Part shown: positions 11,368 through 59,521 of the stretch, one piece after another
Layout of the letters: the number at the start of each line of letters is the position of its first letter
Numbering within the stretch: the stretch's first letter is position 1
Origin: Desulfobacterales bacterium
Lineage (GTDB): Bacteria; Desulfobacterota; Desulfobacteria; Desulfobacterales; SURF-7
Direction: 5' to 3'
NCBI GenBank assembly: GCA_041740615.1
Contig: JBGSLR010000026.1
Span: forward strand, 5,165 to 69,164
DNA length: 64,000 nt
The notes under the pieces: model-generated
Database searches by the model: none
Told to the model about the DNA's origin: nothing
The model's input: only the letters and a program-made list of their open reading frames with translations
Translations under genes and position numbers: made by a program

Positions 11368-11565
11368 TGGCGAATCTCTTCTGTCAGATGCTTACCTACA
11401 CTACATTTTTTGAAACTTATTTCGAAAAATCGGTTTCAATAGAATAACCGGATACCGGAAGGGCGCGACAAATCACGGAAGTCCCGGACAATCCAATTCC
11501 CGGAATTCAAATTGAAATCGTATTGTTATGTGAATCATTGCAGGTAAACATCATGGAGGTTGAAC

Positions 11566-13434: not shown

Positions 13435-13812
13435 AAGTGTCCTGCACGACCCGCTTTCAGCAACAGATACGGGCATTTATCACGCCCGTATCTGTTGCTC
13501 TCGATCCGACCACGCCGCTTTTTTCTCTCCATCCGATCGGTAAGATGGATATGCCAAACGCCGGGCACCCGTTGCCATCAATCGGGGAAACGAAAAATAA
13601 CCAGCTTGCCGTAAGCAGATAGCTGTATTATTTTAATGGGGTTTCGCGTTTATGATGATGCCCGGGTGGGCTATCGCCTATCATCATAATTATTCAATTT
13701 TGTCTTTTTTTTAATGGATTTATTACAAATTTGGCATTATAATAACCATTTTTGTTGCTGACAGCACGATCTAATTATATGGAATTATAGTATTTTATGT
13801 ATTCATGGTAGC

Positions 13813-13828
13813 TGGCATGGCTATTGCT
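13813..13828 (+). promoter_or_regulatory. sigma-54 (-24/-12) promoter upstream of the split glutamate synthase operon
   Basis: TGGCAT-GGCTA-TTGCT matches the TGGCAC-N5-TTGCW consensus, about 100 nt upstream of the 13932 start. An AT-rich region of about 250 nt (13620-13860) lies upstream. Confidence 0.5.
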
Positions 13829-27480: not shown

Positions 27481-27909
27481 ATGGTACGCCCCCAGAAGGA
27501 CCGGATTGTCACATTCAATCCCAATGTCAGCTATTTCAAACCCCGCGGCATTCCCATGATCGATCTCGAGGAGGTCGCCCTGACCGTGGATGAACGCGAA
27601 GCCATCCGGCTCGCCGATCTCCAGGGGCTGGCCCACGAAGAGGCCGGTCGACAGATGGGGGTATCCAGGGCCACTTTCGGACGGATCGTCAACCGGGCGC
27701 GCCGGATTATTGCCGATGCGCTGATCAACGGCAAAGCCATCAATGTCCAGGGGGGCAACTATCGGATTGGGGACACCAAACGTATTTTCGTGTGTCAGCA
27801 TTGCGACAACCAGTGGGAAGAAGCGCAGGGCAGCGGTCATCCAGGTTGTTGCCCGGCTTGTCATGACGAAAACATTTATCGTCTCCCGCAAATGGAAGCC
27901 GGGGGATGA
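27481..27909 (+). CDS. DUF134 (UPF0251) family predicted DNA-binding protein with a C-terminal Cys-rich (CxxC...CC..C) extension
   Basis: FKPRGIP...LTVDEREAIRLADLQGL.HEEAGRQMGVSRATFGRIV..AR.IIADAL is the DUF134 signature. The C-terminal tail reads CQHCDN...HPGCCPACHDE. Confidence 0.7.
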   Translation: MVRPQKDRIVTFNPNVSYFKPRGIPMIDLEEVALTVDEREAIRLADLQGLAHEEAGRQMGVSRATFGRIVNRARRIIADALINGKAINVQGGNYRIGDTKRIFVCQHCDNQWEEAQGSGHPGCCPACHDENIYRLPQMEAGG

Positions 27910-27974
27910 ACTGGAAAAAAACCGGTGTCGATCACAGCGGTTTTTTTGATTTACGCATTAGAAAGGAAGAGAAC

Positions 27975-28811
27975 ATGAAGCAAGATGGTATCAGTATCGC
28001 GAGCAGTCCGGCGCAGGCCAAACCGGATCCGGACGCGCCGGTCAAGGAGTCGCTTGGAAAAATAAAAAACAAGTTCATTGTCATGAGCGGCAAAGGCGGT
28101 GTCGGAAAAACCAGTGTAACGGTCAATTTGGCGATGGCGCTGGCCAAAAAGGGCTTCCGGGTCGGCATCATGGATGTGGATATTCATGGTCCGGATATTC
28201 CCCGTATGCTCGGGTTGTCGGGTATGCTGGATGTGGATCAGAATCAGAAATTGGTTCCGTTGCAGTATTCGGACAAATTGGCTGCGATTTCCATTGAAAG
28301 CCTGAGCGTGAACAAGGATGACGCCATTATTTGGCGGGGTCCGGTCAAGCACTCGGCCATTCGTCAATTCATCGGCGATGTGGCCTGGGGGAATCTCGAT
28401 TTTTTATTGATCGACGCCCCCCCCGGAACCGGCGATGAACCCCTTACCGTCGCCCAGATCATCAAGGATGCCCAGGCCGTCATCGTCACGACGCCCCAGG
28501 AAGTCTCCCTGGCGGATGTCCGCAAGTCCATCAATTTTTGTCGGGTTGTCAAGATGGGCATTTTCGGACTCATCGAAAACATGAGCGGGCTGCATTGTCC
28601 CCATTGCAACCAGTTGATCGATATATTCGGTTCCGGCGGTGGAGAGCGAACTGCTCTTGAAACCGGCATTTCCTTTCTGGGGCGGGTTCCTTTTGACACC
28701 GAAATGGTCGTTTGCGGCGATGCCGGCGTTTCCTATCAGGAAAAATATGCGGACTCACCGGTTACCAAAGCCTTTGACGCCATTGCGGAAAAAATGGGCA
28801 AACTGGTTTGA
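27975..28811 (+). CDS. apbC: Mrp/NBP35 (ApbC) family Fe-S cluster carrier ATPase
   Basis: Deviant Walker A GKGGVGKTSVTVNLA, a CPHC motif and a ParA/MinD fold. The start was moved to the ATG at 27975, which has an RBS GAAAGGAAGAG. Confidence 0.85.
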   Translation: MKQDGISIASSPAQAKPDPDAPVKESLGKIKNKFIVMSGKGGVGKTSVTVNLAMALAKKGFRVGIMDVDIHGPDIPRMLGLSGMLDVDQNQKLVPLQYSDKLAAISIESLSVNKDDAIIWRGPVKHSAIRQFIGDVAWGNLDFLLIDAPPGTGDEPLTVAQIIKDAQAVIVTTPQEVSLADVRKSINFCRVVKMGIFGLIENMSGLHCPHCNQLIDIFGSGGGERTALETGISFLGRVPFDTEMVVCGDAGVSYQEKYADSPVTKAFDAIAEKMGKLV

Positions 28812-28892
28812 CGTGCGATCCGGAAGCAGGTTGAAACCACCTTGGTCCCACAAGGGGTCAGGGTGGTATTGCCGTTTATTATCATCTTATTA

Positions 28893-29031
28893 CAAGCCAT
28901 CTCAAAAAAAAATTTGAATCAAGATCGAGGCGGATTCAAGTTTCAAACCGGAGGCGTACGCTTGTATATCGAGGATTTGAAAACCGAACCCAACCAAGAG
29001 ATTGGGGCAAAAGACTTTTTTGAGATGGCTT
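28893..29031. repeat. long-range 17-bp inverted repeat enclosing about 105 nt, with inner small hairpins, in the AT-rich intergenic region upstream of pspA
   Basis: CAAGCCATCTCAAAAAA (28893-28909) is the reverse complement of TTTTTTGAGATGGCTTG (29015-29031). The inner part contains TTGAATC...GATTCAA and GTTTCAAACC / TTTGAAAACC. Confidence 0.55.
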
Positions 29032-29226
29032 GCAGTATCCTTGTCGGGAACTGGATCCATTTTACAACAAATCGAATGGTTCTTGTCGAATCGATGCCAA
29101 GGTTTTCCGCGTGTATTTTCGCAGCGTTAAAAGACGAAAATATGCGATGTGTATTCGATACAACAAACCGAAGCAAATTTTTCTAAAAAAGACATGCGAT
29201 TCCCCTGAGGCATATCCCCAAAAATC

Positions 29227-29261
29227 TTGACACCCTATTACCGTTCGCATATCCTTCGTTT
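29227..29261 (+). promoter_or_regulatory. candidate sigma-70 promoter for the pspA-like gene
   Basis: TTGACA (29227-32), a 17-nt spacer, then TATCCT. It lies about 50 nt before the ATG at 29314. Confidence 0.3.
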
Positions 29262-29313
29262 ATTAAGCGGTGTCTTCCTGATCCATATGGGCTCATCGAT
29301 GGGGGATACGAAA

Positions 29314-30105
29314 ATGGGACGGTTCGACGACTTTCTGCGAAAGCTGAACAATTTCCTGACGGATGCGGAAGAACAGCCTGAATCCAAGATCGGACCGGGT
29401 ATTCAGGAGTTGGCGGTCAGCCGGATTCAGGCGCTGCAAAATCGCTGGGAAATCCTGGAAGCCCAGGTCGGCTTGGCTGTTCAATCGCGGCATGATTTAC
29501 AGAAGCAGGTGACGGAAGCCAAAGCAGTGGAAGCAATCGGCAAGCAGGCATTGATCGCCGGCAATACCCGGAAGGCTCAAGCGGCCATGGCGCGGTATGC
29601 GGATATGCAGCAGACAATTCAGCAGATAGCGTCTCGGGCCAGGAAGGCGGATGAACAGGCCGCCGCAGCTATCACCGCTTTTTCAACGGAAGCCCGGGCG
29701 GCCCAACAGCTGGCCACAGAGGCCCGCGCCTTGGCGCAGCTTGAAAGTGTGATTGAGCTGCAGAAAAAGCATCAGGCCTTGACCATCACTCAGTCGACGA
29801 CGGTGGATGAATTCGAGGTTGCCCGGGAAGCTCTTTTGCTGAAGGCATCGGTGCAGGCAGCCGTCATGAGTCTGCAGGAAGACCAGGACACGTTGCGTGC
29901 GGAATTGACCGCCATAGGAAAAAGAGATGAAATGCTGGCCGTCGGTGAAAGGTGGCAGCGGGAAATCGAGGAGGTTGGAATGGAACGAAACAAGGCCCCG
30001 CGGTTTTCCATTTCGGCGGAGGATCCGGCCCGGCAAGCCATTACCTTCCTGGAGCAACCGCCTTTTAAAGGGATGATAGCGGATGGATCTCAGCGGAATC
30101 GATAG
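29314..30105 (+). CDS. pspA: PspA/IM30 (phage-shock protein A-like) coiled-coil protein
   Basis: The ORF was trimmed to MGRFDDFLRKLNNFL, which resembles the PspA N-terminal amphipathic helix. The rest is a long heptad-rich Ala/Gln/Glu coiled coil. RBS GGGGGA. Confidence 0.55.
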   Translation: MGRFDDFLRKLNNFLTDAEEQPESKIGPGIQELAVSRIQALQNRWEILEAQVGLAVQSRHDLQKQVTEAKAVEAIGKQALIAGNTRKAQAAMARYADMQQTIQQIASRARKADEQAAAAITAFSTEARAAQQLATEARALAQLESVIELQKKHQALTITQSTTVDEFEVAREALLLKASVQAAVMSLQEDQDTLRAELTAIGKRDEMLAVGERWQREIEEVGMERNKAPRFSISAEDPARQAITFLEQPPFKGMIADGSQRNR

Positions 30106-39095: not shown

Positions 39096-40955
39096 CTAAA
39101 AGCCCGGCAAACCGCTGAACCCGATGAAAGACCAATACAGCCCGGCCATCAGCAACAGCATGATGTTGGCGATAAACCAGAGTGGGATTCCGATTCGGAG
39201 AAAATCCTTGGGCTCCAGATACCCGCTGGCGTATACAATGGCGTTGGGCGGCGTGCCGATGATCAGGCAATACGCAAAGGATGAGGCGATGGCCGTGGAA
39301 ATGGCCATGAACGGGAGGAAGGCGGTTCCCGGATGAGCCAGACCGGCCATGTTGAGGGTAACGGGACCCACGGCGGCGGCGGCCGGACCATCCGCCATCA
39401 AATTCGTAACAACGGCGGTCAGGCAGTTGGAAACAGCCAGCAGTGGAAGTCCGGCATTGATTCCCAACGGGCTGAGTAAATCCATGGCGCTTCTGGCGAT
39501 CCAGTAGGCGGCCCCGGTGGTGTCCAGGACACGCCCGAAGATGATGGCGCCGGCATAAAGCCAGACAACCCCCCAGTCGACTTTTTCCTGATAGTCCCGC
39601 CAGTTGACCACGCCGGCCAGGATATAGGCCACAGCGCCGGCGATGGCGATCACGCCGATGCCCAGTCGAACGGGGAACAGGCCGCTGTCGTAAATCGATT
39701 TTTCCGTAAACCATCCGGTGATCATGACCAGGAAGATGCCCAGGGCCCAGATCTGTTTCTTGTTCCAACCACCCATTTTGCTGATTTCCGTCTCCAGATG
39801 GGCCATGGCCGGCGCCAAGGATCGGATGCTGGGTTTGAAGCGCCAGTTGAGCAACAGCCAGGTCACCGGAATCATGACGACCAGGAACGGCATGCCGTAG
39901 ACCATCCATTGATAATAGCCGATATCCATACCGAACATATCGTTCAGATAGGTCATCATGATGACGTTTCGGGCGCCGCCGGAAGGAGCGCCGGGACCGC
40001 CGATATTACAGGCCATGGCGATGCCGATCATCAATATTTTCCCCAGTTCGGGATCCTCGGGGATTTCACGGGTCAGGCTGTTTTGATACAGCAGCATGCC
40101 GATGGGCAGAAACATGGCCGCCAATGCATGGTCGGAAATGAAGGCGGCCAGAGGAGTGATGACGATGAAAAAGATCAGGGTGATCCATTTGACGTTGGGA
40201 ACGGCGAGTTTTTTGAACATCATCAGGCACACGCGCTTGTCCACTCCGGTTTTCACCAGAGCCGCCGCGAACATGAGGCTGCCCATGATGAACCAGCAGG
40301 CGTCACTCCAATAGAGCCCGGCCACTTCTTCCCGTCCGACTACCCCGGTAAACACCAGAATCAGGCCCACGCAGAAGGCCACACCGGGAAGCGGGATGCA
40401 TTCGGTGAGAAAACAACCCACCACGAATACGGTCATGGCGATGGCCACCTGAATGTGCCAGGCTCCTTTTTCCGCGGCTTTTTTTTCGGCTTCGGGTAAT
40501 TGCTCGAACTTCAAATCGTCCTTGCGCAGTTTCAGAACGGTTTTCATCAGGTCGGTATAGGCCTCATCCGAGACTTGGGTTTCCATATGCTGGTAGGCCT
40601 GCTCAAAATTCTTTTTGACCGCCGGAATGCCTTCCTTGCCGCACCATTTCATATCGCGGGACAGGTAGCGCTTTTTGGACAGCGCTCCCATTTGCAGGTT
40701 GCGTTCCATGATCTTGGCCGTCAGGAGTTGCCACTGTTCGGCGGCGGCGCTTTCCTTCTGAAACAAGGTGGTCGTTATGGCGTTGATGACCGCCTGGGGG
40801 CCGACCTTGTATTCGGTGCCCACATCTTTCATGCTGTCGGGGGTGGGGATCATAAGGATTAGAAAAAAGAGCGCGACCGGAATACTGAAAATTTTCCAGT
40901 CCACATATTTATCGTAGCCCGTGGCTTTCTTGGTTTTTGCTATCGGATGGGTCAT
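39096..40955 (-). CDS. DASS/CitMHS-type (SLC13-like) anion transporter with an N-terminal soluble region of about 170 aa
   Basis: Trimmed to the ATG at 40955 (MTHPIAK), which has AGGAGG 7 nt upstream. There are two permease repeats, with hairpin motifs similar to those of the transporters at 46.8 and 50.5 kb. Confidence 0.75.
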   Translation of the reverse strand: MTHPIAKTKKATGYDKYVDWKIFSIPVALFFLILMIPTPDSMKDVGTEYKVGPQAVINAITTTLFQKESAAAEQWQLLTAKIMERNLQMGALSKKRYLSRDMKWCGKEGIPAVKKNFEQAYQHMETQVSDEAYTDLMKTVLKLRKDDLKFEQLPEAEKKAAEKGAWHIQVAIAMTVFVVGCFLTECIPLPGVAFCVGLILVFTGVVGREEVAGLYWSDACWFIMGSLMFAAALVKTGVDKRVCLMMFKKLAVPNVKWITLIFFIVITPLAAFISDHALAAMFLPIGMLLYQNSLTREIPEDPELGKILMIGIAMACNIGGPGAPSGGARNVIMMTYLNDMFGMDIGYYQWMVYGMPFLVVMIPVTWLLLNWRFKPSIRSLAPAMAHLETEISKMGGWNKKQIWALGIFLVMITGWFTEKSIYDSGLFPVRLGIGVIAIAGAVAYILAGVVNWRDYQEKVDWGVVWLYAGAIIFGRVLDTTGAAYWIARSAMDLLSPLGINAGLPLLAVSNCLTAVVTNLMADGPAAAAVGPVTLNMAGLAHPGTAFLPFMAISTAIASSFAYCLIIGTPPNAIVYASGYLEPKDFLRIGIPLWFIANIMLLLMAGLYWSFIGFSGLPGF

Positions 40956-41117
40956 ATTCTCCTCCTGACGGCTGGTATTCATTGATTCAGGTCAACCGGC
41001 ATTCAAGGCGAGCCGAAAATCGGCAAAACAAAAGTGTCGACGCAGACGGCGCGATCCGCGTTTGAATGCGAATGGGAACGTATCACAACAAAACGGTCAC
41101 TCGTCGATCCGGTGAGA

Positions 41118-41576: not shown

Positions 41577-41665
41577 TCCTTCGTTCTCCGTGGTTGAGTG
41601 TTTATAAAGTCTTTGGAATGTTTCGGCGCCGATTCCAAGTTATCTTCTTCTGCCCGTAGTAGGGA

Positions 41666-41680
41666 GCAACCTTCATGCCA
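41666..41680 (-). promoter_or_regulatory. sigma-54 promoter in the histidine kinase / response regulator intergenic region
   Basis: The minus strand reads TGGCAT-GAAGG-TTGCT, about 78 nt before the response regulator ATG at 41576. Confidence 0.5.
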
Positions 41681-45056: not shown

Positions 45057-45165
45057 CGCTTTTCGCTTGCGCTTCCTTTCATGGATTGTATCCGCTGCCA
45101 CCGGAATCGATGCGTCCCTCAACCGTTGTGGAAGCTCGGATTCTCGGTATTGAACTATTCGAAAA

Positions 45166-45180
45166 GCAACCCCTGTGCCA
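45166..45180 (-). promoter_or_regulatory. sigma-54 promoter (perfect TGGCAC-N5-TTGC) for the PAS / Cache-kinase / response-regulator operon
   Basis: The minus strand reads TGGCAC-AGGGG-TTGCT. Confidence 0.55.
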
Positions 45181-46805: not shown

Positions 46806-48383
46806 TTAAACCAGTCCCAGAATTTTCCACCACACGCCGGCCACGACGACCAGAATGGTGAGCAATATCGGTGTGGCCACCAGTCCCGCCTTGGTAAGAT
46901 CCGAGGCCTTGAAATACCGATAGCTGTAAGCAATGGCGTTGGGAGGACAGCCGATCACCAAAATCATGGCGAAGGACGTGGCCATGCCGAGGCACAGGGC
47001 CAGAATGGTGGGATTGACCCCTTCCAGTTGGGCCATGGGGATGACGATGGGCAGAATCAGAGCCGCCGCTGCCACATTGGCCATGACATTGGTTACCAGG
47101 GCCCCGAAAACGCCCACGCCTACGAACAGGACCAGCCATCCGCCACCCTTGATCAGCGGGAAAAAGAGGTTGGCGAAGTAATCCGCGGCGCCGGTGGAGC
47201 CCATGGCCAGGCCCATGGCCAGGCCGCCGCCGAAGATGAACAGGGCGGTGCCCCATTCCAGGTTCTCATTGATATCCTCCCATTTCAAAACGCCGAACAG
47301 CACTAACGCAGCAACCCCCAGCATACCGGTAACGGAGTAATCCAGTCCGTGAATTCCCTTGGTCAACCAGAACAGGAACGAGATGCCCGTGATGACCAGG
47401 GTTTTGATTTCCAGGTTTGTCCAGGGACCGATGCTTTCCTCGAACAGGGGCAGCTTTTTGGAAGTATCCGGTCGATAGAGCATATAGACGACGCTGATCG
47501 CCGCCGGCATGGTCAATAGGGCGGCCGGCAGGGCGTATTTGGTCCAGTTGAAAAAATCCAGCTCCATGCCGGTGTATTCCTTGAGGAAAGCGGCCGACAC
47601 CATGCAACGTCCGCCGCCGATCAGGGTTCCCATGCCGCCGCAGGAGCAGGCAAAGGCAAGGGACAACAACATGAAGCGGGCTGTGTTGGTATGGGGTTCG
47701 ATACCGGAGGCGCGCATGAGGGGCAGCATGATGGCGATGCCGATGGCGCAGGCGGCGGCATCGTGCATGACCGTGGAAGCGAGGCCGAGCCCCAGACAAA
47801 GAATAAAGGTGAAACGAGTAACGCTGGAGCCGGCCTTCTTTACGATAAAGTAGCCCAGTCGTTTGGTCATGCCGGCCTTGTCCAGGGAGATGGCGAAGAT
47901 CAGGCAGCACATGATGAAGACCACTACCGGGTGCATATACGCCGCCCAGACATCCTTGACGTCTCCAATGCCGAAGCCCACCAGTGAAACGCCGATGCAG
48001 ATGGCTGTAATTTCGAGGGGAATGGGCTCCACCACAAACAGGAAGATCAACACTGCCAGGATGGCGAGGAACCGTTTTGCCTTGGGAGGAAGACCGTCGA
48101 CATATCCGATGGTTGTCTTTTCCAGGCGGAGTGTTTTGGCCCGATCCGTCAGAAATTGGGCAGCGTCTTCGGGCTGGCCCGGGGTTTTGATTTCAAGGAA
48201 ATATTGATTTTCGGTTTTTTTGTCGGTCTCGAAAAGTTGAAACTGTGCTTTTACATCCTCTAACAGCCGTCGATCGTTATCGCCGTTGATTTTAAACCGG
48301 GTTCCCTCCGGACGCGGCAACAACATGACAACAAGTCCAAGCAAAATGCCCACCCCAAGCTTGAATCCGTTTGATTTCCACAT
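46806..48383 (-). CDS. DASS/CitMHS-type anion transporter (copy A)
   Basis: 525 aa. About 90 % nucleotide identity to 50549..52126 over long stretches. GGAGGA lies 9 nt upstream. Confidence 0.8.
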   Translation of the reverse strand: MWKSNGFKLGVGILLGLVVMLLPRPEGTRFKINGDNDRRLLEDVKAQFQLFETDKKTENQYFLEIKTPGQPEDAAQFLTDRAKTLRLEKTTIGYVDGLPPKAKRFLAILAVLIFLFVVEPIPLEITAICIGVSLVGFGIGDVKDVWAAYMHPVVVFIMCCLIFAISLDKAGMTKRLGYFIVKKAGSSVTRFTFILCLGLGLASTVMHDAAACAIGIAIMLPLMRASGIEPHTNTARFMLLSLAFACSCGGMGTLIGGGRCMVSAAFLKEYTGMELDFFNWTKYALPAALLTMPAAISVVYMLYRPDTSKKLPLFEESIGPWTNLEIKTLVITGISFLFWLTKGIHGLDYSVTGMLGVAALVLFGVLKWEDINENLEWGTALFIFGGGLAMGLAMGSTGAADYFANLFFPLIKGGGWLVLFVGVGVFGALVTNVMANVAAAALILPIVIPMAQLEGVNPTILALCLGMATSFAMILVIGCPPNAIAYSYRYFKASDLTKAGLVATPILLTILVVVAGVWWKILGLV

Positions 48384-48425
48384 ATGATGGTTTCCTCCAC
48401 TCTAGATTGTTTGGTTCGATATTCA

Positions 48426-48557
48426 TAGAAGTGGTTTCAAAGCCTTCAATCGGCCATGGCCGGGAAAGGTGCTCACGCGCGGACAATCCGCTGGTGTGTT
48501 GAGCGCCCGTCCCGGTAAACCGATGGGAATCGAGGGGAGGTTTTGAAACCACTTCTA
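48426..48557 (-). promoter_or_regulatory. structured 5' leader: a 16-bp perfect inverted repeat enclosing a GC-rich 100-nt core (candidate riboswitch, attenuator or ncRNA)
   Basis: TAGAAGTGGTTTCAAA (48426-41) is the reverse complement of TTTGAAACCACTTCTA (48542-57). The core contains the self-complementary GGCCATGGCC. It lies between a sigma-54 promoter and the transporter start codon. Confidence 0.5.
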
Positions 48558-48587
48558 AACAAACTGATTGCGTACGGCTCCAATCGA

Positions 48588-48602
48588 GCAACCTCCATGC
48601 CA
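48588..48602 (-). promoter_or_regulatory. sigma-54 promoter for transporter copy A and the response regulator
   Basis: The minus strand reads TGGCAT-GGAGG-TTGCT. Confidence 0.5.
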
Positions 48603-48924
48603 ACTATTTATTCCATATGTTGTCACCTAACATGGAGCAATCAGAACAAAAGCAAACAGAGACGTGGATGACTGTAAAAAAAAGAAATGGCCCCCTGTCA
48701 GAACTTTTTACAGGTTGTAAAAAACATATTCTGCTGATGGAAGAAACTGGGGGTATACGGAAGCTGCATTGGACAGAGATCGAATACGGACATATTTTTA
48801 CCACGAAGGACACAAAGAAATGTTCTTACGTTCCGGCACGGCAGAAATAACTTTGTGTTCTTCGTGATCAACGAAGCGAGTGGTGGTATACGCATCGCCA
48901 AAGGTTTTTTATCATTCGTTGGTA

Positions 48925-49365
48925 CTAAACATCTCCACTTCTTCGCATCAGCAGTTTGGCTTCGGCTTTTCGGATGCGTTCTTCCTGTTCATCCTTGCGC
49001 AGTCTTGCGGCTTCGAGTTTTGTCGACAAATCCGAAAAGTCCGCCGGTTTCAGGAGGTAATCAAAGGCGCCGAGCTTCATTCCCTGAACCGCCGTCTCGG
49101 TGCTGCCGTGCCCGGTGAGCAGAATGACTTCAACCAGCGGGAACTGCTTTTTGATTTCTTTCAGGGTGTCGATGCCGTCCATGCCCGGCATCTTGATATC
49201 CAGGAGGACCACATCCACCAGCTTTTCTGTCAGCCGGTCCAGGCATTCCTTTCCGCTGTGGGCGGTCAATACCTGCTCGCCGCTATCCGTGAGCCGCAGG
49301 GACATGATTTCAACAAAATCCGTTTCGTCATCGACGAGCAAAACGCGTGTGGGTATTCTGATCAT
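48925..49365 (-). CDS. single-domain CheY-like response regulator (copy B)
   Basis: 146 aa. Paralog of 46342..46782. Confidence 0.85.
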   Translation of the reverse strand: MIRIPTRVLLVDDETDFVEIMSLRLTDSGEQVLTAHSGKECLDRLTEKLVDVVLLDIKMPGMDGIDTLKEIKKQFPLVEVILLTGHGSTETAVQGMKLGAFDYLLKPADFSDLSTKLEAARLRKDEQEERIRKAEAKLLMRRSGDV

Positions 49366-49413: not shown

Positions 49414-50544
49414 TCATCCATCTCGCCGGTTGGGGATGCTCACCGAAAAGCAGGCTCCTTTTCCGATGCCGCTTTCCAGCCGAATGTTTCCCTGCAGGCG
49501 TTGCACAATGCCCCGCACGATAAAAAGGCCGAGGCCCGTCCCCTTTCCCGGGGGCTTGGTGGTGAAAAAGGGTTCGAATATTTTTTCCTGATGTTCTTTG
49601 GGGATGCCGCCGCCGGTATCCGAGATCCGAAACAGAATTTGTTGTCCTTCTTCCTGGACCTGTACGGTGACAACGGCGTTTTCTTCACTGGCATGGACGG
49701 CGTTGGTCAACAGGTTGAGGAGCACCTGTCTCAATTGAAACGGATCGCTCCAGAAGATTTTCAGATGATCGGGAAGGTTGGTGGCGATCCGGATGTGTTT
49801 GACGGCCGTCTCCTTTTCCACCAGTCGGATGATATCCGCAATGAATTCGGAAAGGTCGATTTCCGACAGGGAAAGGGGTGTTTCCCGAACCACCCCCAAA
49901 AGCTGGTGGGTGATCCGGCGTGCCCGGTCCACGGCCGTTTCAATTTTTTCAAGGGCTTTTTCAATGTCGGCTTTGCGTTCGATTCCGCCTTCCCTGCTTT
50001 TACCGAGGATCTGGCGCATCCAACCCGCTGCTTCGTTGATGATCGCAAGGGGGTTGTTGATTTCATGGGCAATACCGGCCGCGAGGGTTCCCAGGGATGC
50101 CAGACGCTTGTTGGCGATGATCTGACGTTCCATGGCTTCCCGCAGTTCCGCTTCCCGCAGTTTATCCTTTTCCCGTTGGATCTTGTCATGCGCCTGGATG
50201 ATCTTGCTTTCCAGATGATCGATCTCGACGGGCTTGGTCAGATAGTCGAAAGCGCCGGCCTTGATGCCGTCGACACCGTCCTGGGGGGATGCATGACCGG
50301 TCAGGAGGATGGTCTCGATCTTCGGAAAACGCTCCCGAATGCGTCCCAGTAGATCGAGACCGCTCATCCCCGGCATTTTGACATCCGACACCACGACATC
50401 CACGGGCTGTTTTTCCAGGATGTCCAGGCCGGCGGCGCCGCTGGTGGCCAGGAGCGCCTCCATACCTCTCTTTTTCAGTCGTTTGGCGATGGCCTCGATA
50501 AAATAGAGTTCATCGTCCACGAGCAGCAGGCGAATGGGTTCCAC
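49414..50544 (-). CDS. hybrid histidine kinase: N-terminal receiver followed by HisKA + HATPase_c, with no sensor domain
   Basis: Receiver (LLVDDE..DVKMPG..LTGHA), H-box [11 protein letters not shown] and G boxes. It starts 4 nt after the stop of transporter B. Confidence 0.85.
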   Translation of the reverse strand: MEPIRLLLVDDELYFIEAIAKRLKKRGMEALLATSGAAGLDILEKQPVDVVVSDVKMPGMSGLDLLGRIRERFPKIETILLTGHASPQDGVDGIKAGAFDYLTKPVEIDHLESKIIQAHDKIQREKDKLREAELREAMERQIIANKRLASLGTLAAGIAHEINNPLAIINEAAGWMRQILGKSREGGIERKADIEKALEKIETAVDRARRITHQLLGVVRETPLSLSEIDLSEFIADIIRLVEKETAVKHIRIATNLPDHLKIFWSDPFQLRQVLLNLLTNAVHASEENAVVTVQVQEEGQQILFRISDTGGGIPKEHQEKIFEPFFTTKPPGKGTGLGLFIVRGIVQRLQGNIRLESGIGKGACFSVSIPNRRDG

Positions 50545-50548
50545 GTTT

Positions 50549-52126
50549 TTACACCAGTCCTAATATTTTCCACCATATTCCGGCGACGGCCACGAGAATT
50601 GTCAGCAATATCGGTGTCGCAACCAAACCGGCTTTTGTCAAGTCCGAAGCTTTGAAATACCGATAACTATAGGCGATTGCGTTGGGCGGGCAGCCGATCA
50701 CCAGCAGCATGGCAAAGGAGGTGGCCATTCCCAGACACAGGGCCAGAATGGTGGGATTGACCCCTTCCAGTTGGGCCATGGGGATGACGATGGGCAGAAT
50801 CAAGGCCGCCGCGGCCACGTTGGCCATGACATTGGTCACTAGTGCGCCGAAGACGCCCACGCCCACGAACAGGACCAGCCAGCCGCCGCCTTTGATCAGC
50901 GGGAAAAAGAGGTTGGCGAAATAACCCGCCGCCCCGGTGGAGCCCATGGCCAGTCCCAAGGCCAGCCCCCCTCCGAAGATAAACAAGGCCGTGCCCCATT
51001 CCAGGTTTTCGTTGATGTCCTCCCATTTCAAGACGCCGAACAATACCAATGCGGCGACTCCCAGCATGCCGGGCACGGAATAGTCCAGGCCGTGAATTCC
51101 CTTGGTCAACCAGAACAGGAAAGTGATGCCGGTGATGACCATGGTTTTGATTTCCACTGACGTCCAGGGACCGATGCTTTCATCGAATTCAGGTAATTTT
51201 ATAGCGGGATCCGGCCGGAAGAGAAGATATACCACGCCCACGGCCGCCGGCATGGTCAACAGGGCGGCCGGCATGGCGTATTTGGACCAGCTGAAAAAAT
51301 CCAGTTCCATACCCGTGAATTCCTTTAAAAAAGCAGCTGACACCATGCAGCGGCCGCCGCCGATGAGGGTGCCCATGCCCCCGCAGGAACAGGCGAAAGC
51401 AAGGGAGAGCAGCATGAAACGGGCCGTATTGGTGTTGGGTTCGATGCCGGAGGCGCGCATGAGGGGCAGCATGATGGCGATGCCGATGGCGCAGGCGGCG
51501 GCGTCGTGCATCACCATGGAGCCCGTTCCCAGACCCAGGGCCAGAACAAATGTGAAACGGGTGACATTGGTGCCGGCCTTACGGACGATAAAGTATCCCA
51601 GTCGTTTGGTCATGCCGGCCTTGTCCAGGGAGATGGCGAAGATCAGGCAGCACATGATGAAGACCACCACCGGATGCATATAAGCCGCCCAGACATCCTT
51701 GACGTCGCCGATGCCGAAGCCCACCAGGGCAACACCGATGCAGATGGCTGTAATTTCAAGGGGGATGGGCTCCACCACGAACAGGACGACCAGCACGGCC
51801 AGGATGGCCAGAAACCGTTTGGCCTTTGGCGGCAGTCCATCCACATAGCCGACGGTTACCTGCTCCAACCCCAGGGATTTCGCCCGATCCTGTAGAAACC
51901 GGGCGTTATTATCCGGTTGGTCCGGGATTTTGATTTCAAGAGTATAGCCGGTCTCGGACTTTTTTTCAGAGGCGGCAAGTTGGAACTGCGCGCCAACATC
52001 CGCCAAGAGCAGGCGTCCCGGATCTCCGCTGATGGTGAATTGGGTCCCTTCCGGACGCGGCAGCAGCATGATGACAACGCCCAGCAGAATCGCTACACCA
52101 AGTTTAAAACCTTTTGATTGCAACAT
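50549..52126 (-). CDS. DASS/CitMHS-type anion transporter (copy B)
   Basis: Trimmed to MLQSKGFKLGV (ATG at 52126), with an RBS AAGGAG. At 525 aa it is the same length as copy A. Confidence 0.8.
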   Translation of the reverse strand: MLQSKGFKLGVAILLGVVIMLLPRPEGTQFTISGDPGRLLLADVGAQFQLAASEKKSETGYTLEIKIPDQPDNNARFLQDRAKSLGLEQVTVGYVDGLPPKAKRFLAILAVLVVLFVVEPIPLEITAICIGVALVGFGIGDVKDVWAAYMHPVVVFIMCCLIFAISLDKAGMTKRLGYFIVRKAGTNVTRFTFVLALGLGTGSMVMHDAAACAIGIAIMLPLMRASGIEPNTNTARFMLLSLAFACSCGGMGTLIGGGRCMVSAAFLKEFTGMELDFFSWSKYAMPAALLTMPAAVGVVYLLFRPDPAIKLPEFDESIGPWTSVEIKTMVITGITFLFWLTKGIHGLDYSVPGMLGVAALVLFGVLKWEDINENLEWGTALFIFGGGLALGLAMGSTGAAGYFANLFFPLIKGGGWLVLFVGVGVFGALVTNVMANVAAAALILPIVIPMAQLEGVNPTILALCLGMATSFAMLLVIGCPPNAIAYSYRYFKASDLTKAGLVATPILLTILVAVAGIWWKILGLV

Positions 52127-56610: not shown

Positions 56611-58080
56611 ATGTTTCAAAAAGTAAGCCTCCGGTTGCGACTGTTTTTATTGATAACGGCGCTGGCGTTGCTGAATCTTCTCGGTTCCCTGGGAACGGTC
56701 TGGTATACGTATCGAACGCAGAGCCTTTATGCGGCTGTACTGGATCAGGACGTGTCCGCGCTGACGGCCGCGCAGAAAATGGAAACCGAGTTGATCATGC
56801 AGAAAGGGTTGACCAGCTATTTTTTCCTGACCAACGACGAAAAATGGCTTGCACAACTGCTTGAGCGGACGCGGAATTTTAAACATTGGCTGACCGTTGC
56901 GCGGGAGATGAACAACATCGAGGAAGCCAGGGGGATCCTGAATGAAATCGAATCCCGCTTCATCCAGTATGGATTCGATCGGGATAATGTGATTGCGCTG
57001 TATAAGGGAGGTAAACGAAAAGAAGGGGAAAATCTGCACTGGAAGGTCCGTGACCAGTTTTTCGCCATTTTTGATCTGGCTGAAAAATTCAAGACGGCCC
57101 ATGAACGTCAGATTGCGGATCTGCAGAGAAAATTTCGGCGATCCAGCTCGAAAATGGCGGTATTCGCCTGGGCCGCCATCCCATGCGTACTGATTATCAG
57201 TATCCTGCTCACCGCCATCATTTTACGGCAGATCTTGAGTCCCATCCGCCGACTGGCCATGGGAAAGGAAGGCCCGAAAAGACCCATCGGCGACGAAGTC
57301 CAAGCGGTGAAAAACCGCCTGGACGATCTGGTGGAGAATATCGGGCAAACCCAGGCGAAACTGATGGAAAGTCAGGCCCATCTTATTCAGTCAGAAAAAC
57401 TTGCCATGGTGGGGAAGCTCGCGGCCGGTGTGGCGCACAGCGTCCGGAATCCATTGACTTCCGTTAAAATGAGACTGTTCACATTGGAACGCAGCCTGCA
57501 GCTGACGCCGCCCCAGAAAGAGGACCTGGATGTCATTTCCGAGGAAATCCGGCATATCGATACCATCCTCAGAAATTTTCTTGAGTATTCGCGGCCGCCC
57601 AAACTGAAAATGCACACGGCCAGTCCTTCCGATGTAGTGGATATGACCTTGCAACTGTTGCGGCATCGTTTCGATTCCTACCGCACGGAAGTCCAGGTAA
57701 TAAGAACCGGGAGATTGCCCGAGATACCCATCGATACGGATCAATTGAAAGAAGTGCTGGTCAATCTGATGGTGAATGCCTGTGAGGCCATGGGGGAAGG
57801 CGGGACAATTCAGATCCAGGAAGAAACCGGCCTGCGGGAGAATATAGGAGAAGTTGCGCTGATTGAAGTCCATGACAATGGCCCGGGAATACCGGCGGCG
57901 CTTGTGGATAAGATTTTTCAGCCTTTTTTCAGCTCCAAGGAGGAAGGTTCGGGACTGGGACTCAGCATCGCAAGGCGGATAATTGAAGAGCACGGCGGCG
58001 AAATCAACGCGAAGCCCGATGAAGGCATCGGGGCCACCTTTGTCATCTCGCTGCCCCTGAAGGAGGAGATCCATGGCTAA
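56611..58080 (+). CDS. sensor histidine kinase (two transmembrane segments, helical periplasmic sensor, HisKA + HATPase_c), partner of the sigma-54 activator
   Basis: Trimmed to MFQKVSLRLRLFLL. H-box AHSVRNPL, and G boxes DNGPGIP and GSGLGL. Confidence 0.85.
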   Translation: MFQKVSLRLRLFLLITALALLNLLGSLGTVWYTYRTQSLYAAVLDQDVSALTAAQKMETELIMQKGLTSYFFLTNDEKWLAQLLERTRNFKHWLTVAREMNNIEEARGILNEIESRFIQYGFDRDNVIALYKGGKRKEGENLHWKVRDQFFAIFDLAEKFKTAHERQIADLQRKFRRSSSKMAVFAWAAIPCVLIISILLTAIILRQILSPIRRLAMGKEGPKRPIGDEVQAVKNRLDDLVENIGQTQAKLMESQAHLIQSEKLAMVGKLAAGVAHSVRNPLTSVKMRLFTLERSLQLTPPQKEDLDVISEEIRHIDTILRNFLEYSRPPKLKMHTASPSDVVDMTLQLLRHRFDSYRTEVQVIRTGRLPEIPIDTDQLKEVLVNLMVNACEAMGEGGTIQIQEETGLRENIGEVALIEVHDNGPGIPAALVDKIFQPFFSSKEEGSGLGLSIARRIIEEHGGEINAKPDEGIGATFVISLPLKEEIHG

Positions 58081-59521
58081 AATTCTGATTGTCGATGACG
58101 ACCCCCAACTGCGGCAGAGTTTCCAGAAGATCCTGTCAAGCGAAGGGCATACCCTGTTGACGGCCAATTCCGGGGAAGCCGGCATCGCCGTGGTCAAGGA
58201 GAACCAGCCGGACTTGGTGGTCATGGACGTGCGCATGCCGGGCATGAGCGGCCTGGAGGCCTTTGAAATGATGCATCAGCTCCATCCCAAGATGCCGGTC
58301 ATCATCATGACAGCTTACGGCACCACGGAAACCGCCATCGAGGCCACCAAAATGGGCGCATTTGATTACGTGCTCAAACCGTTCGAAATCCCGGACATTC
58401 TTGATCTCATCGAAAGAGCCCTTCAGGCCGGGCGTTTCATGCGGTCCCAGGTCACGGTAAACGCCCCGGCCAAATCCGTGATCCAGGATGCCATCGTAGG
58501 CCAGAGCGCTCCCATGCAGGAGGTGTACAAAGCCATCGGCCGCGCCGCTCCCACCGACGCCACGATTCTCATCCGCGGGGAATCCGGAACCGGCAAAGAA
58601 CTGGTGGCCCGTGCGATCTATCAGCACAGCCTGAGAGCCGACCAGCCGTTTCTGGTGATCAACTGTGTGGCGATACCCGAAACACTGTTGGAAAGTGAAT
58701 TGTTCGGTTATGAAAAAGGCGCCTTTACCGGCGCGGTGAACAGGCGGGTGGGCAAAATCGAGCAGGCCAACAACGGCACGGTTTTTCTGGATGAGATCGG
58801 CGACATGCCCTATAATATCCAAGCCAAGATTCTTCGCTTGCTGCAGGAGAAAAGTATTGAACGATTGGGAGGCCGGCAACCGATTCCCGTGGATGTCCGC
58901 ATCATCGCCGCCACCAATCGCGATCTGGAGGCGGCCGTTACGGAAGGGCGGTTCCGGGAAGATTTGTATTACCGCCTGAAAGTCGTCAGTCTGAATCTGC
59001 CGCCCTTGAGAGAACGACCGGAGGATCTGCCGTTGCTGATCGATTATTTCCTGCAGAAATTCAGTCGGGAGATGAATGTCACCGATCCCGGCAGATCGGA
59101 TGCCGCCTTGCACGCCTTGCGTCGGCATGCATGGCCGGGAAATGTTCGGGAACTGGCCAATACCATCCAGAAAGCGCTGATTTTCAGCCAGGGGGCGCCG
59201 TTTACAGAGGACGATATCATCCGTTCGATGGATGCCCATCACGGGCACCGGAAAGCATCCCGGGCCTCCGCTGCGGAAGGGTTTGAGTCCGGGTTGAGAG
59301 AGTGGGTGCACCAGATGCTCGTGTCAGCGGGCGAGGAAAACCTGTTCGACAGCATTATGGACTATTTCGGCGGTATCGTCACCCGTGAGGCCCTGAATAT
59401 CACCGAGGGAAATCGCACCCAGGCGGCAAAAATACTAGGGCTTTCCCGGCCGACCCTGTTGGCCCGCATTGAACGCTATGGCTTGAAAATCCAGACCGGT
59501 GTGAAGGGACCGGATGAGTGA
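58073..59521 (+). CDS. sigma-54-dependent Fis-family response regulator (NtrC/AtoC-like enhancer-binding protein)
   Basis: Receiver, AAA+ (GESGTGKE, GAFTGA, ESELFGYEKGAFTG) and a C-terminal HTH. It overlaps the kinase gene by 8 nt. Confidence 0.9.
   Translation: MAKILIVDDDPQLRQSFQKILSSEGHTLLTANSGEAGIAVVKENQPDLVVMDVRMPGMSGLEAFEMMHQLHPKMPVIIMTAYGTTETAIEATKMGAFDYVLKPFEIPDILDLIERALQAGRFMRSQVTVNAPAKSVIQDAIVGQSAPMQEVYKAIGRAAPTDATILIRGESGTGKELVARAIYQHSLRADQPFLVINCVAIPETLLESELFGYEKGAFTGAVNRRVGKIEQANNGTVFLDEIGDMPYNIQAKILRLLQEKSIERLGGRQPIPVDVRIIAATNRDLEAAVTEGRFREDLYYRLKVVSLNLPPLRERPEDLPLLIDYFLQKFSREMNVTDPGRSDAALHALRRHAWPGNVRELANTIQKALIFSQGAPFTEDDIIRSMDAHHGHRKASRASAAEGFESGLREWVHQMLVSAGEENLFDSIMDYFGGIVTREALNITEGNRTQAAKILGLSRPTLLARIERYGLKIQTGVKGPDE

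What the first reader, a model, noticed from the sequence alone, without database searches (positions are those of the whole stretch)
48426..48602. Structured leader with a 16-bp perfect inverted repeat, between a sigma-54 promoter and transporter copy A
The minus-strand sigma-54 promoter (TGGCAT-GGAGG-TTGCT, 48588-48602) is followed by a leader of about 190 nt.

In the leader, TAGAAGTGGTTTCAAA and TTTGAAACCACTTCTA are reverse complements, at 48426-48441 and 48542-48557. They bracket a GC-rich core of about 100 nt with internal palindromes (GGCCATGGCC, and CCGGG...CCCGG).

This position and architecture fit a riboswitch, an attenuator or a protein-binding leader controlling the transporter. 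They would also fit a MITE-like insertion carrying the promoter. I cannot assign it to a known RNA family.
Basis: seen in the sequence. Interest (0 to 1): 0.55.

Follow-up and report, generated by a model that had tools for sequence, protein, structure and literature searches.

The report
Mobile hairpin repeat in transporter leader
The hairpin between the sigma-54 promoter and the transporter gene is not a riboswitch: it is one copy of a small non-coding mobile element (a MITE) found in many Desulfobacterales genomes, and its ends are identical to those of a 904-bp IS5-family insertion sequence.

Summary
A 16-bp perfect inverted repeat (48426-48441 / 48542-48557) closes a 132-nt rod-like hairpin. 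It lies about 30 nt downstream of a good -24/-12 box (48587-48602, minus strand) and 42 nt upstream of the ATG of a DASS transporter gene.

The riboswitch or attenuator reading is not supported. There is no Rfam match, and the hairpin's core is found nowhere else.

- **Copy number:** the 20-nt terminus TAGAAGTGGTTTCAAARCCT gave at least 120 stretches in 65 species-level genomes, almost all Desulfobacterales MAGs, against about 2 expected by chance. One genome holds at least 12 copies.
- **Placement:** the copies are intergenic, lie next to unrelated genes, and occur in both orientations.
- **Form:** they are mostly 146-149 nt long and end in TA on both sides.
- **Parent element:** the same 20-nt termini flank at least 16 full-length insertion sequences of about 904 bp. 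These encode an IS5-family transposase and look like the IS427 group.

A model of the family scores the window copy at 69 bits. It also finds a second, diverged copy at 28891-29034.

One point goes beyond a plain MITE. The canonical core keeps its hairpin through compensatory changes, and it is conserved across subfamilies that have different termini. This is unexplained.

Verdict: an ordinary kind of element, from a family I could not find described.

The parts
48426..48557 (+). The 132-nt MITE copy. The family's forward orientation is on the + strand, so the copy is antisense to the transporter mRNA. It has the family's typical termini but a divergent core.
   Evidence: Family covariance model R1 scores 69.1 bits (E = 8e-15) on + and 41.4 bits on -. 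Its alignment to canonical copies is, and its folds are.
48426..48447 (+). Left terminal inverted repeat and outer stem arm (TAGAAGTGGTTTCAAAGCCTTC). The first two bases, TA, are either the element's end or a duplicated target.
   Evidence: The 20-nt terminus is identical or nearly identical to the left end of the ~904-bp IS.
48534..48557 (+). Right terminal inverted repeat and outer stem arm (GGGGAGGTTTTGAAACCACTTCTA). It resembles the IS right end, where AGGTTTTGA encodes the last transposase codons and the stop.
48448..48533 (+). GC-rich core hairpin, specific to this copy. It contains GGCCATGGCC and the arms CCGGGAAAGGTGCTCA / TGAGCGCCCGTCCCGG. It lacks the family's conserved loop motifs.
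   Evidence: No similar core exists in 120 related loci, and the arm-to-core junction was not found in the metagenome collection.
48587..48602 (-). Sigma-54-type -24/-12 box, TGGCATGGAGGTTGCT. It lies outside the element.
   Evidence: A near-identical box lies at 41665-41680 upstream of another response-regulator and DASS-transporter pair.
48384..48425 (-). The rest of the leader, between the element and the start codon. The ribosome-binding site GGAGG is at 48394-48398 and the ATG at 48381-48383.
   Evidence: sequence read directly.
46806..48383 (-). DASS-family anion symporter gene, transporter copy A.
   Evidence: Pfam Na_sulph_symp and CitMHS. Homologues are named DASS family sodium-coupled anion symporter.
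28891..29034 (+). Second member of the same repeat superfamily in the window. It has the canonical core motifs but different termini that changed together on both arms (TACAAGCCATCTCAAAAAA ... TTTTTTGAGATGGCTTGCA).
   Evidence: R1 scores 76.6 bits, E = 1e-16. It has a 17-bp perfect inverted repeat.

Best explanation
The hairpin is a non-autonomous transposable element (MITE). It belongs to a large family of Desulfobacterales intergenic palindromic repeats whose terminal inverted repeats are those of a ~904-bp IS5-family insertion sequence that looks like the IS427 group.

**Inferred history.** The element inserted at a TA dinucleotide into what was a leader of about 60 nt. That leader ran between a sigma-54 promoter and the ribosome-binding site of the DASS transporter A gene. 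The reconstructed empty site is ...GATATTCA-TA-AACAAACTG...

**Inferred present state.** Because the element lies downstream of the promoter, it is co-transcribed in antisense orientation, as a long stem-loop from about +20 to +150 of the 5' UTR. It is most likely a passenger. Any effect on expression would be the generic one of such repeats: a long duplex that can stabilise a transcript, or be cut by a double-strand-specific RNase, as reported for Correia and ERIC elements. It would not be ligand- or signal-specific control.

**Shown here:** family membership, copy number, boundaries, and termini identical to those of the IS.

**Inferred:** the transposition mechanism, the TA duplication, and co-transcription.
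For: - My own estimate of the chance expectation is about 2. The stretches come from 65 genomes, nearly all Desulfobacterales MAGs, with up to 12 per genome.
- **Form.** I found 92 paired elements with a modal length of 146-149 nt, plus 38 solo arms.
- **Placement.** 79 of 92 elements are intergenic. The co-oriented versus anti-oriented counts are 18 and 20. The neighbouring genes are unrelated housekeeping genes.
- **Boundaries.** The ends are sharp. TA is at both ends in 74 of 91 copies and no longer duplication exists. The flanks show a symmetrical preference, T at -4 and A at +4, which the window copy shares.
- **Amplification.** Copies are 92% identical within a genome and 77% between genomes.
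- **Parent IS.** An IS5-family transposase gene ends inside the same terminus in L110. A complete IS lies at L122 887-1788. At least 16 full-length ISs of 871-907 bp carry the same 20-nt termini at both ends, exactly or with 1-2 mismatches. The transposase matches NCBIfam transpos_IS5_3 at 197 bits against a cut-off of 110.
- **IS group.** Its size, 2-bp repeat and two-ORF layout match the IS427 group as tabulated in PMC3281130.
- **Membership of the window copy.** The family model scores it at 69 bits.
- **No alternative match.** No Rfam family matches the window copy or the canonical copies.
Against: - The window copy shares only its outer 27-28 nt on each side with the family. Its 77-nt core is unique. 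It is therefore a divergent or composite member, and its own mobility is unproven.
- No empty site was available, so TA as a target duplication cannot be told apart from TA as the last bases of the inverted repeat.
- None of the Desulfobacterales loci I held carries the IS itself. The ISs with identical ends came from other MAGs, such as Vicinamibacterales, and from unlabelled metagenome contigs.
- The rest of the source genome could not be examined, because look-ups by protein failed.
- Canonical copies show compensatory changes and conserved loop motifs. That is more constraint than a purely selfish passenger needs.
Confidence: 0.85

Rival explanations
1. It is a dedicated cis-regulatory leader RNA (riboswitch, attenuator or protein-binding site) that controls the DASS transporter in response to an anion or a regulator.
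For: It sits between a plausible sigma-54 promoter and the start codon. Its fold is very stable.
Against: - No Rfam match.
- The same termini and architecture occur beside unrelated genes, in both orientations, in 65 genomes.
- The transcript would carry the strand that fits the family model less well: 41 against 69 bits, and -74 kcal/mol for the 204-nt leader against -80 for the 132 nt on the + strand.
- Paralogue B and the related operon in L001 have no such leader.
- The core is a plain rod with no multi-helix junction.
Confidence: 0.03
2. It is a MITE that the host has put to use. The transcribed duplex serves the cell, for example as an mRNA-stabilising 5' stem-loop or an RNase III processing site that sets transporter A expression apart from that of paralogue B.
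For: - The element is inside the predicted 5' UTR, 30 nt upstream of the ribosome-binding site.
- Correia and ERIC repeats in transcripts are cleaved by RNase III or alter mRNA levels (review PMC10969869).
- At two orthologous insertion sites in other genomes, the elements are 94% and 99% identical while the flanks are 82-93% identical.
Against: - There are no expression data.
- Orientation is random across the family.
- The window copy lacks the family's conserved core motifs.
- Two orthologous pairs are too few to show constraint.
Confidence: 0.1
3. It is a REP/REPIN-type element moved by a RAYT (Y1 HUH) transposase through single-stranded DNA, or an integron attC site, rather than an IS5-type MITE.
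For: - It is a long imperfect palindrome with compensatory changes and a clear strand asymmetry: 228 G-T wobble pairs against 36 A-C on the forward strand.
- Solo arms occur next to small gene cassettes, such as an antitoxin gene in L102.
Against: - The termini are identical to the inverted repeats of a DDE-type IS5-family element.
- No recurrent Y1 transposase or integrase appears among the neighbours.
- The ends do not fit the attC core sites RYYYAAC / GTTRRRY (sequence read directly).
- Copies are dispersed, not arranged in arrays.
Confidence: 0.03

Closest known systems
Prokaryotic MITEs that share their ends with an insertion sequence (here the IS5 family, apparently the IS427 group)
   Same: It is under 500 bp and non-coding, has terminal inverted repeats, occurs as multiple dispersed intergenic copies, folds into a stable hairpin, and has the same termini as an autonomous IS. 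These are the defining features listed in PMC10969869. The IS itself fits the IS427 group by size, by a repeat of about 2 bp, and by two ORFs joined at an A-rich slippery stretch.
   Different: Similarity to the IS stops after about 22-24 nt at each end, so the element is not a simple internal deletion of the IS. The IS was not seen in the Desulfobacterales loci I held. The canonical core is conserved across subfamilies with different termini.
Correia elements (CREE/NEMIS) of Neisseria
   Same: Both are about 100-155 bp with terminal inverted repeats and a TA at both ends. Both are intergenic, often co-transcribed with neighbouring genes, and form long duplexes. RNase III cleavage of such transcripts is reported.
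   Different: There is no sequence similarity and the host phylum differs. I found no IHF site or outward promoter here, and a likely parent IS can be named here.
ERIC / IRU repeats of enterobacteria
   Same: Both are imperfect palindromes of about 127-150 nt in transcribed intergenic regions. Both are conserved across many species, occur in both orientations, and have longer variants carrying internal insertions.
   Different: ERIC has no known parent IS. The sequences are unrelated.
REPINs (paired REP sequences moved by RAYT transposases)
   Same: Both are long hairpins kept by compensatory changes, and copies are more alike within a genome than between genomes.
   Different: The termini here match a DDE-type IS rather than a RAYT. 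No Y1 transposase was found nearby.

Membership tests
MITE (prokaryotic miniature inverted-repeat transposable element) | Short (<500 bp) with no coding capacity | tested here: met
   The window copy is 132 nt and the family mode is 146-149 nt.
MITE (prokaryotic miniature inverted-repeat transposable element) | Terminal inverted repeats | tested here: met
   16 bp are perfect and 27 nt are 85% complementary. The termini are nearly invariant across 49 aligned copies.
MITE (prokaryotic miniature inverted-repeat transposable element) | Many dispersed copies per genome | tested here: met
   At least 120 stretches in 65 genomes, up to 12 per genome, all lower bounds. Two superfamily copies lie in this 64-kb window. 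The rest of the source genome could not be examined.
MITE (prokaryotic miniature inverted-repeat transposable element) | Target-site duplication flanking the element | tested here: inconclusive
   TA is at both ends in 74 of 91 copies and no longer duplication exists. TA is its own reverse complement, so without an empty site it cannot be told apart from the end of the inverted repeat.
MITE (prokaryotic miniature inverted-repeat transposable element) | An autonomous element with matching ends that could supply the transposase | tested here: met
   At least 16 ISs of 871-907 bp carry the same 20-nt termini, exactly or with 1-2 mismatches, and an IS5-family transposase.
MITE (prokaryotic miniature inverted-repeat transposable element) | Mobility shown by presence/absence polymorphism or by transposition | not testable with these tools
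   No sister genome closer than about 74% protein identity was found. Higher identity within than between genomes is only indirect evidence.
IS5 family, IS427-group derivative | Ends identical to those of an IS whose transposase is IS5-family, with IS427-group size and layout | tested here: met
   Pfam DDE_Tnp_1, DDE_Tnp_1_2 and DUF4096. NCBIfam transpos_IS5_3, 197 bits against a cut-off of 110. The IS is about 904 bp with termini of about 20 bp. This compares with 832-865 bp, 13-21 bp repeats and a 2-bp duplication in PMC3281130. The subgroup assignment rests on these features, not on a phylogeny.
IS5 family, IS427-group derivative | The matching IS is present in the genomes that carry the MITEs | tested here: not met
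   tblastn with the transposase found it only in L110, a Vicinamibacterales MAG. An unrelated IS5-family element with other ends is in L090. Only about 0.7 Mb of Desulfobacterales DNA was held, so absence is not shown.
Riboswitch or other cis-regulatory leader RNA | Match to a curated RNA family | tested here: not met
   Rfam 15 gave no hit at gathering or at E up to 10 other than generic hairpin matches.
Riboswitch or other cis-regulatory leader RNA | Recurrent association with, and fixed orientation towards, one class of regulated gene | tested here: not met
   Neighbouring genes are unrelated. Orientation counts are 18 same, 20 opposite, 16 convergent and 12 divergent. Paralogue B and the L001 operon lack the element.
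Riboswitch or other cis-regulatory leader RNA | A conserved core with covariation in the leaders of orthologous genes | tested here: not met
   The core of the window copy is unique. The covariation seen belongs to the dispersed family, not to transporter leaders.
REP/REPIN (RAYT-associated) | Association with a Y1 (RAYT) transposase gene flanked by the repeats | tested here: not met
   No recurrent transposase-like neighbour appeared among 725 ORFs around the copies. The sample is limited.
Integron attC site | Core sites RYYYAAC ... GTTRRRY at the ends, and tandem cassette arrays | tested here: not met
   The ends read TAGAAGTGG ... CCACTTCTA. Copies are dispersed on many contigs.

The most novel reading that the evidence does not exclude
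The canonical ~148-nt element may be more than a selfish MITE. Its core has four motifs (CAAGGCG, AACCGCAGG, CGAGGATT, CAAC) set in helices that covary. That core is conserved across subfamilies whose termini differ completely, and wobble pairs strongly favour one strand.

This would fit a structured RNA or single-stranded DNA module under its own selection. It could be a cofactor-binding hairpin needed for transposition, or a module the host uses, that has been paired with the ends of several IS427-type elements.

The window copy at 48426-48557 has lost this core. The copy at 28891-29034 has it.
Probability: 0.15. Interest if true: 0.55.

Novelty: new member of a known kind. Interest (0 to 1): 0.3.

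Why it matters
For this locus, it removes a candidate riboswitch. The long leader of transporter A comes from a transposon insertion into an otherwise short sigma-54 leader.

More widely, it defines a MITE family that I could not find described. No paper in the library holds its terminal sequence, and Rfam has no matching family. The family is abundant across uncultured Desulfobacterales, and a candidate parent IS can be named.

Such repeats break assemblies, mimic structured RNAs in motif screens, and can change mRNA stability. A covariance model for them is therefore useful for masking and annotation.

The core shared by subfamilies with different ends is a small open question about how MITE families evolve.

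Tried and rejected
- **Rfam.** I searched the window, the region, and 17 plus 6 canonical loci. Only generic miRNA-like hairpin hits appeared.
- **Source contig.** Look-ups by exact protein to retrieve it failed.
- **Other copies of the exact repeat in the window.** None was found by pattern search or BLAST. The second copy appeared only with the covariance model.
- **The window-specific core.** It was absent from 120 related loci. Its junction with the arm was absent from the metagenome collection.
- **A flank match to L012.** This 44-nt, 82% match lies inside a coding region there, so I dismissed it as chance.
- **Target duplications of 3-9 bp.** None was found at any of four boundary offsets. 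Five-base direct repeats flank 3 of 16 full-length ISs. Two of those three are the same insertion site, so I did not take this as the rule.
- **A full-length IS between solo arms.** None was found in the held Desulfobacterales loci. The IS in L090 has different ends.
- **A recurrent neighbouring transposase, RAYT or integrase.** None was found.
- **Plasmid collection.** There was no hit for the MITE and only weak partial hits for the IS.
- **Literature.** No paper holds the terminal sequence, and none describes MITEs in Desulfobacter*.
- **Intrinsic terminator or sigma-70 promoter inside the element.** None was predicted.

Full report
**1. The observation**

The sequence is as described. TAGAAGTGGTTTCAAA lies at 48426-48441 and its exact reverse complement at 48542-48557. 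The repeat extends to 27 nt at 85% complementarity, and a second inner repeat lies at 48460-48475 / 48500-48515.

The 132 nt fold into a single rod-like hairpin:
- As RNA, the + strand gives -80.4 kcal/mol (z = -9.3).
- The whole 204-nt minus-strand leader gives -74.4 kcal/mol (z = -5.4).
- DNA parameters give the same shape.

Only three places in the 64-kb window have a perfect inverted repeat of 16 bp or more within 300 nt. Thirty shuffles had none.

**2. The setting**

On the minus strand the order of features is:
- a dCache histidine kinase;
- two receiver proteins;
- DASS transporter B (50549-52126);
- a hybrid kinase (49414-50544);
- a receiver protein (48925-49365);
- a 541-nt spacer;
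- DASS transporter A (46806-48383), followed by more two-component genes.

A related MAG has the same operon without copy A. A and B are 87% identical. Copy A with its own upstream region therefore looks like a lineage-specific addition.

TGGCATGGAGGTTGCT (48602-48587) is an exact match to TGGCAY-N5-TTGCW. The window has four exact matches, and each lies upstream of a gene and points the same way as that gene. An NtrC-type sigma-54 activator gene lies at 58073-59521. The promoter reading is therefore reasonable.

The element starts about 19 nt after the expected transcription start. It ends 42 nt before the ATG and 27 nt before the GGAGG ribosome-binding site.

**3. What the hairpin is**

Rfam gives nothing for the window or the region.

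*The family.* I scanned one genome per species for the 20-nt terminus TAGAAGTGGTTTCAAARCCT.
My own estimate of the chance expectation is about 2.
- The stretches come from 65 genomes, almost all uncultured Desulfobacterales, with up to 12 per genome as a lower bound.
- They contain 92 elements with both arms, with a modal length of 146-149 nt and a range of 41-367 nt. There are also 38 solo arms.
- 79 of the 92 are intergenic by crude ORF calls.
- Orientation towards neighbouring genes is random: 18 co-oriented, 20 anti-oriented, 16 between convergent genes and 12 between divergent genes.
- The neighbours are ordinary unrelated genes: kinases, sigma-54 activators, ABC ATPases, peptidases and cytochromes.
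- The boundaries are sharp. Conservation stops at TA on both sides, TA is present at both ends in 74 of 91 copies, and no longer duplication exists.
- The flanks show a weak symmetrical preference, T at -4 and A at +4. The window copy shares it: TTCA|TA...TA|AACA.
- Copies are 92% identical within a genome and 77% between genomes, as expected from lineage-specific bursts.

*The window copy.* It aligns to the family over its outer 27-28 nt on each side. Its 77-nt core differs from the canonical core and was not found elsewhere. A covariance model built from 49 canonical copies still scores it at 69.1 bits on the + strand and 41.4 on the - strand. It is a divergent member, and the mRNA would carry the family's reverse strand.

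**4. The parent element**

- In a Vicinamibacterales MAG (L110), the same 20-mer sits at the very end of an IS5-family transposase gene. The last codons and the stop lie inside the repeat...CTG AGG AGG TTT TGA AACCACTTCTA.
- A homologue on a metagenome contig (L122) shows a complete IS at 887-1788. It has near-identical inverted repeats and TA on both sides.
- A metagenome scan for the coding right end returned 32 loci. At least 16 of them hold full-length ISs of 871-907 bp, mostly 904-905 bp. Both termini match TAGAAGTGGTTTCAAAACCT, exactly in nine and with 1-2 mismatches in the rest. Their transposases are 50-85% identical to the L110 protein.
- The fused 268-aa protein matches NCBIfam transpos_IS5_3 (197 bits against a cut-off of 110) and Pfam DUF4096, DDE_Tnp_1 and DDE_Tnp_1_2.
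- The size, repeat length, two ORFs joined at an A-rich slippery stretch, and a 2-bp duplication are those tabulated for the IS427 group of the IS5 family (PMC3281130).
- Similarity between the IS and the MITE is limited to about 22-24 nt at each end.
- I did not find this IS in the Desulfobacterales loci I held. Which transposase moves the MITEs there remains open.

**5. Features beyond a plain MITE**

*Compensatory change.* In the canonical copies the hairpin is kept by compensatory changes.
- RNAalifold predicts 52 pairs, 24 of them with double changes.
- 94.4% of cells are paired.
- The covariation score is 0.405, against 0.163 in shuffles and 0.04-0.10 for slid partners.

*Conserved motifs.* The alignment has conserved, asymmetrical motifs: CAAGGCG, A-N-CG-S-AG, GAG-N-ATT and CAAC-R-C.

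*Strand asymmetry.* G-T wobble pairs outnumber A-C by 228 to 36 on the forward strand, and by 54 to 25 in the variable helix.

*Shared core, different ends.* The model also finds copies with the same core but quite different termini that changed together on both arms. Examples are TAGAACCCATCTCAAAAAT, TAGTGTCCGTCCATAAATG and TAAAAGGCTCATGAAAAATG. One such copy is in this window at 28891-29034, scoring 76.6 bits.

*Orthologous sites.* At two orthologous insertion sites the elements are 94% and 99% identical, while the flanks are 82-93% identical.

These points suggest selection on the fold, or a mechanism that copies one arm onto the other. They also suggest a core that is older than, or independent of, the particular termini. 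I cannot explain this. It does not affect the verdict on the window copy, which lacks that core.

**6. How it most likely works here**

- *Shown:* the element is a member of the repeat family, with the ends of the IS, and it lies outside the promoter box.
- *Inferred, insertion:* it inserted at a TA into a leader of about 61 nt. One search shows the reconstructed pre-insertion sequence.
- *Inferred, present state:* it is now transcribed as a long antisense-orientation stem-loop in the 5' UTR.
- *Checked and absent:* no terminator or sigma-70 promoter is predicted inside it, and the ribosome-binding site lies outside the hairpin.

By analogy with Correia and ERIC repeats, such a duplex could be cut by RNase III or could alter mRNA half-life (PMC10969869). 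That is a generic and untested possibility.

**7. Comparison and novelty**

It is a MITE by every feature I could test, except two. The TA duplication is inconclusive, and direct proof of mobility could not be tested.
- It works like Correia and ERIC elements but is unrelated to them in sequence.
- It is not a member of any Rfam family.
- It does not fit REP/RAYT or attC definitions.

I found no description of this family. No paper holds the terminal sequence, and none describes MITEs in Desulfobacter*. ISfinder could not be consulted.

I rate it a new member of a known kind. Interest is low to moderate. The value lies mainly in removing a false riboswitch candidate, and in the unexplained conserved core.

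Noticed in passing
window 28891-29034 (+): A second copy of the hairpin-repeat superfamily. It has a 17-bp perfect terminal repeat of a different sequence but the canonical core motifs. It lies between a ParA/NUBPL-like gene (27906-28811) and an ORF at 29227-30105.
   Followed up: partly
L037 2162-2307; L072 5648-5792; L013 3151-3297; L026 4189-4333; L081 3064-3209; L077 6917-7090: These copies were found only by the covariance model. They share the conserved core (CAAGGCG, AACCGCAGG, CGAGGATT, CAAC) but have at least three other kinds of terminal repeat, all starting with T and mostly with TA. A core conserved while the ends differ is the reverse of what a MITE family normally shows.
   Followed up: partly
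window 48792-48871: A second inverted repeat (CACGAAGAACACAAAG ... CTTTGTGTCCTTCGTG, about -30 kcal/mol) lies 190-270 nt upstream of the sigma-54 box and just after the receiver gene 48925-49365. It is unique in the window and the loci. It could be the activator's binding site or a terminator without a T-run.
   Followed up: partly
window 13813-13828 (+), 41665-41680 (-), 45165-45180 (-), 48587-48602 (-): Four exact -24/-12 boxes, each upstream of a gene and pointing the same way as it. The boxes at 41665 and 48587 differ by one base, and both precede DASS-transporter units.
   Followed up: partly
window 39096-40982, 46806-48383, 50549-52126 (all -): Three DASS-family transporter paralogues lie within 13 kb, interleaved with at least eight two-component genes. 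A related MAG (L001) has only the unit that corresponds to copy B.
   Followed up: partly
window 13459-13499 (+): A 16-bp perfect hairpin with a 9-nt loop lies 25 nt after the end of ORF 11560-13434. It looks like a terminator stem but has no immediate T-run.
   Followed up: no
L037, L070, L080, L083, L094, L095, L098, L120 and others: Many family copies are enlarged by nested small GC-rich hairpin modules that recur between loci. Examples are TTCCCGCTTGAACGCGGGATTACACGTCTTGATTTTAACAAATTAAGGTGTGCATCAA and CCCCGCTTCATTGAGCGGGG. These suggest further small repeat families that insert into the MITE.
   Followed up: no
L110 615-631, 1173-1190, 1326-1342: The IS in L110 is interrupted by a GxxExxY-type ORF that is bracketed by TAGGAGATTAGGAG-like inverted repeats. 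This may be another small mobile unit.
   Followed up: no
L019 (Hyphomicrobiales MAG), L088 (Bacteroidales MAG): Canonical MITE copies (116 and 133 bits) occur on contigs binned to non-Desulfobacterales MAGs. This could be mis-binning or horizontal spread.
   Followed up: no
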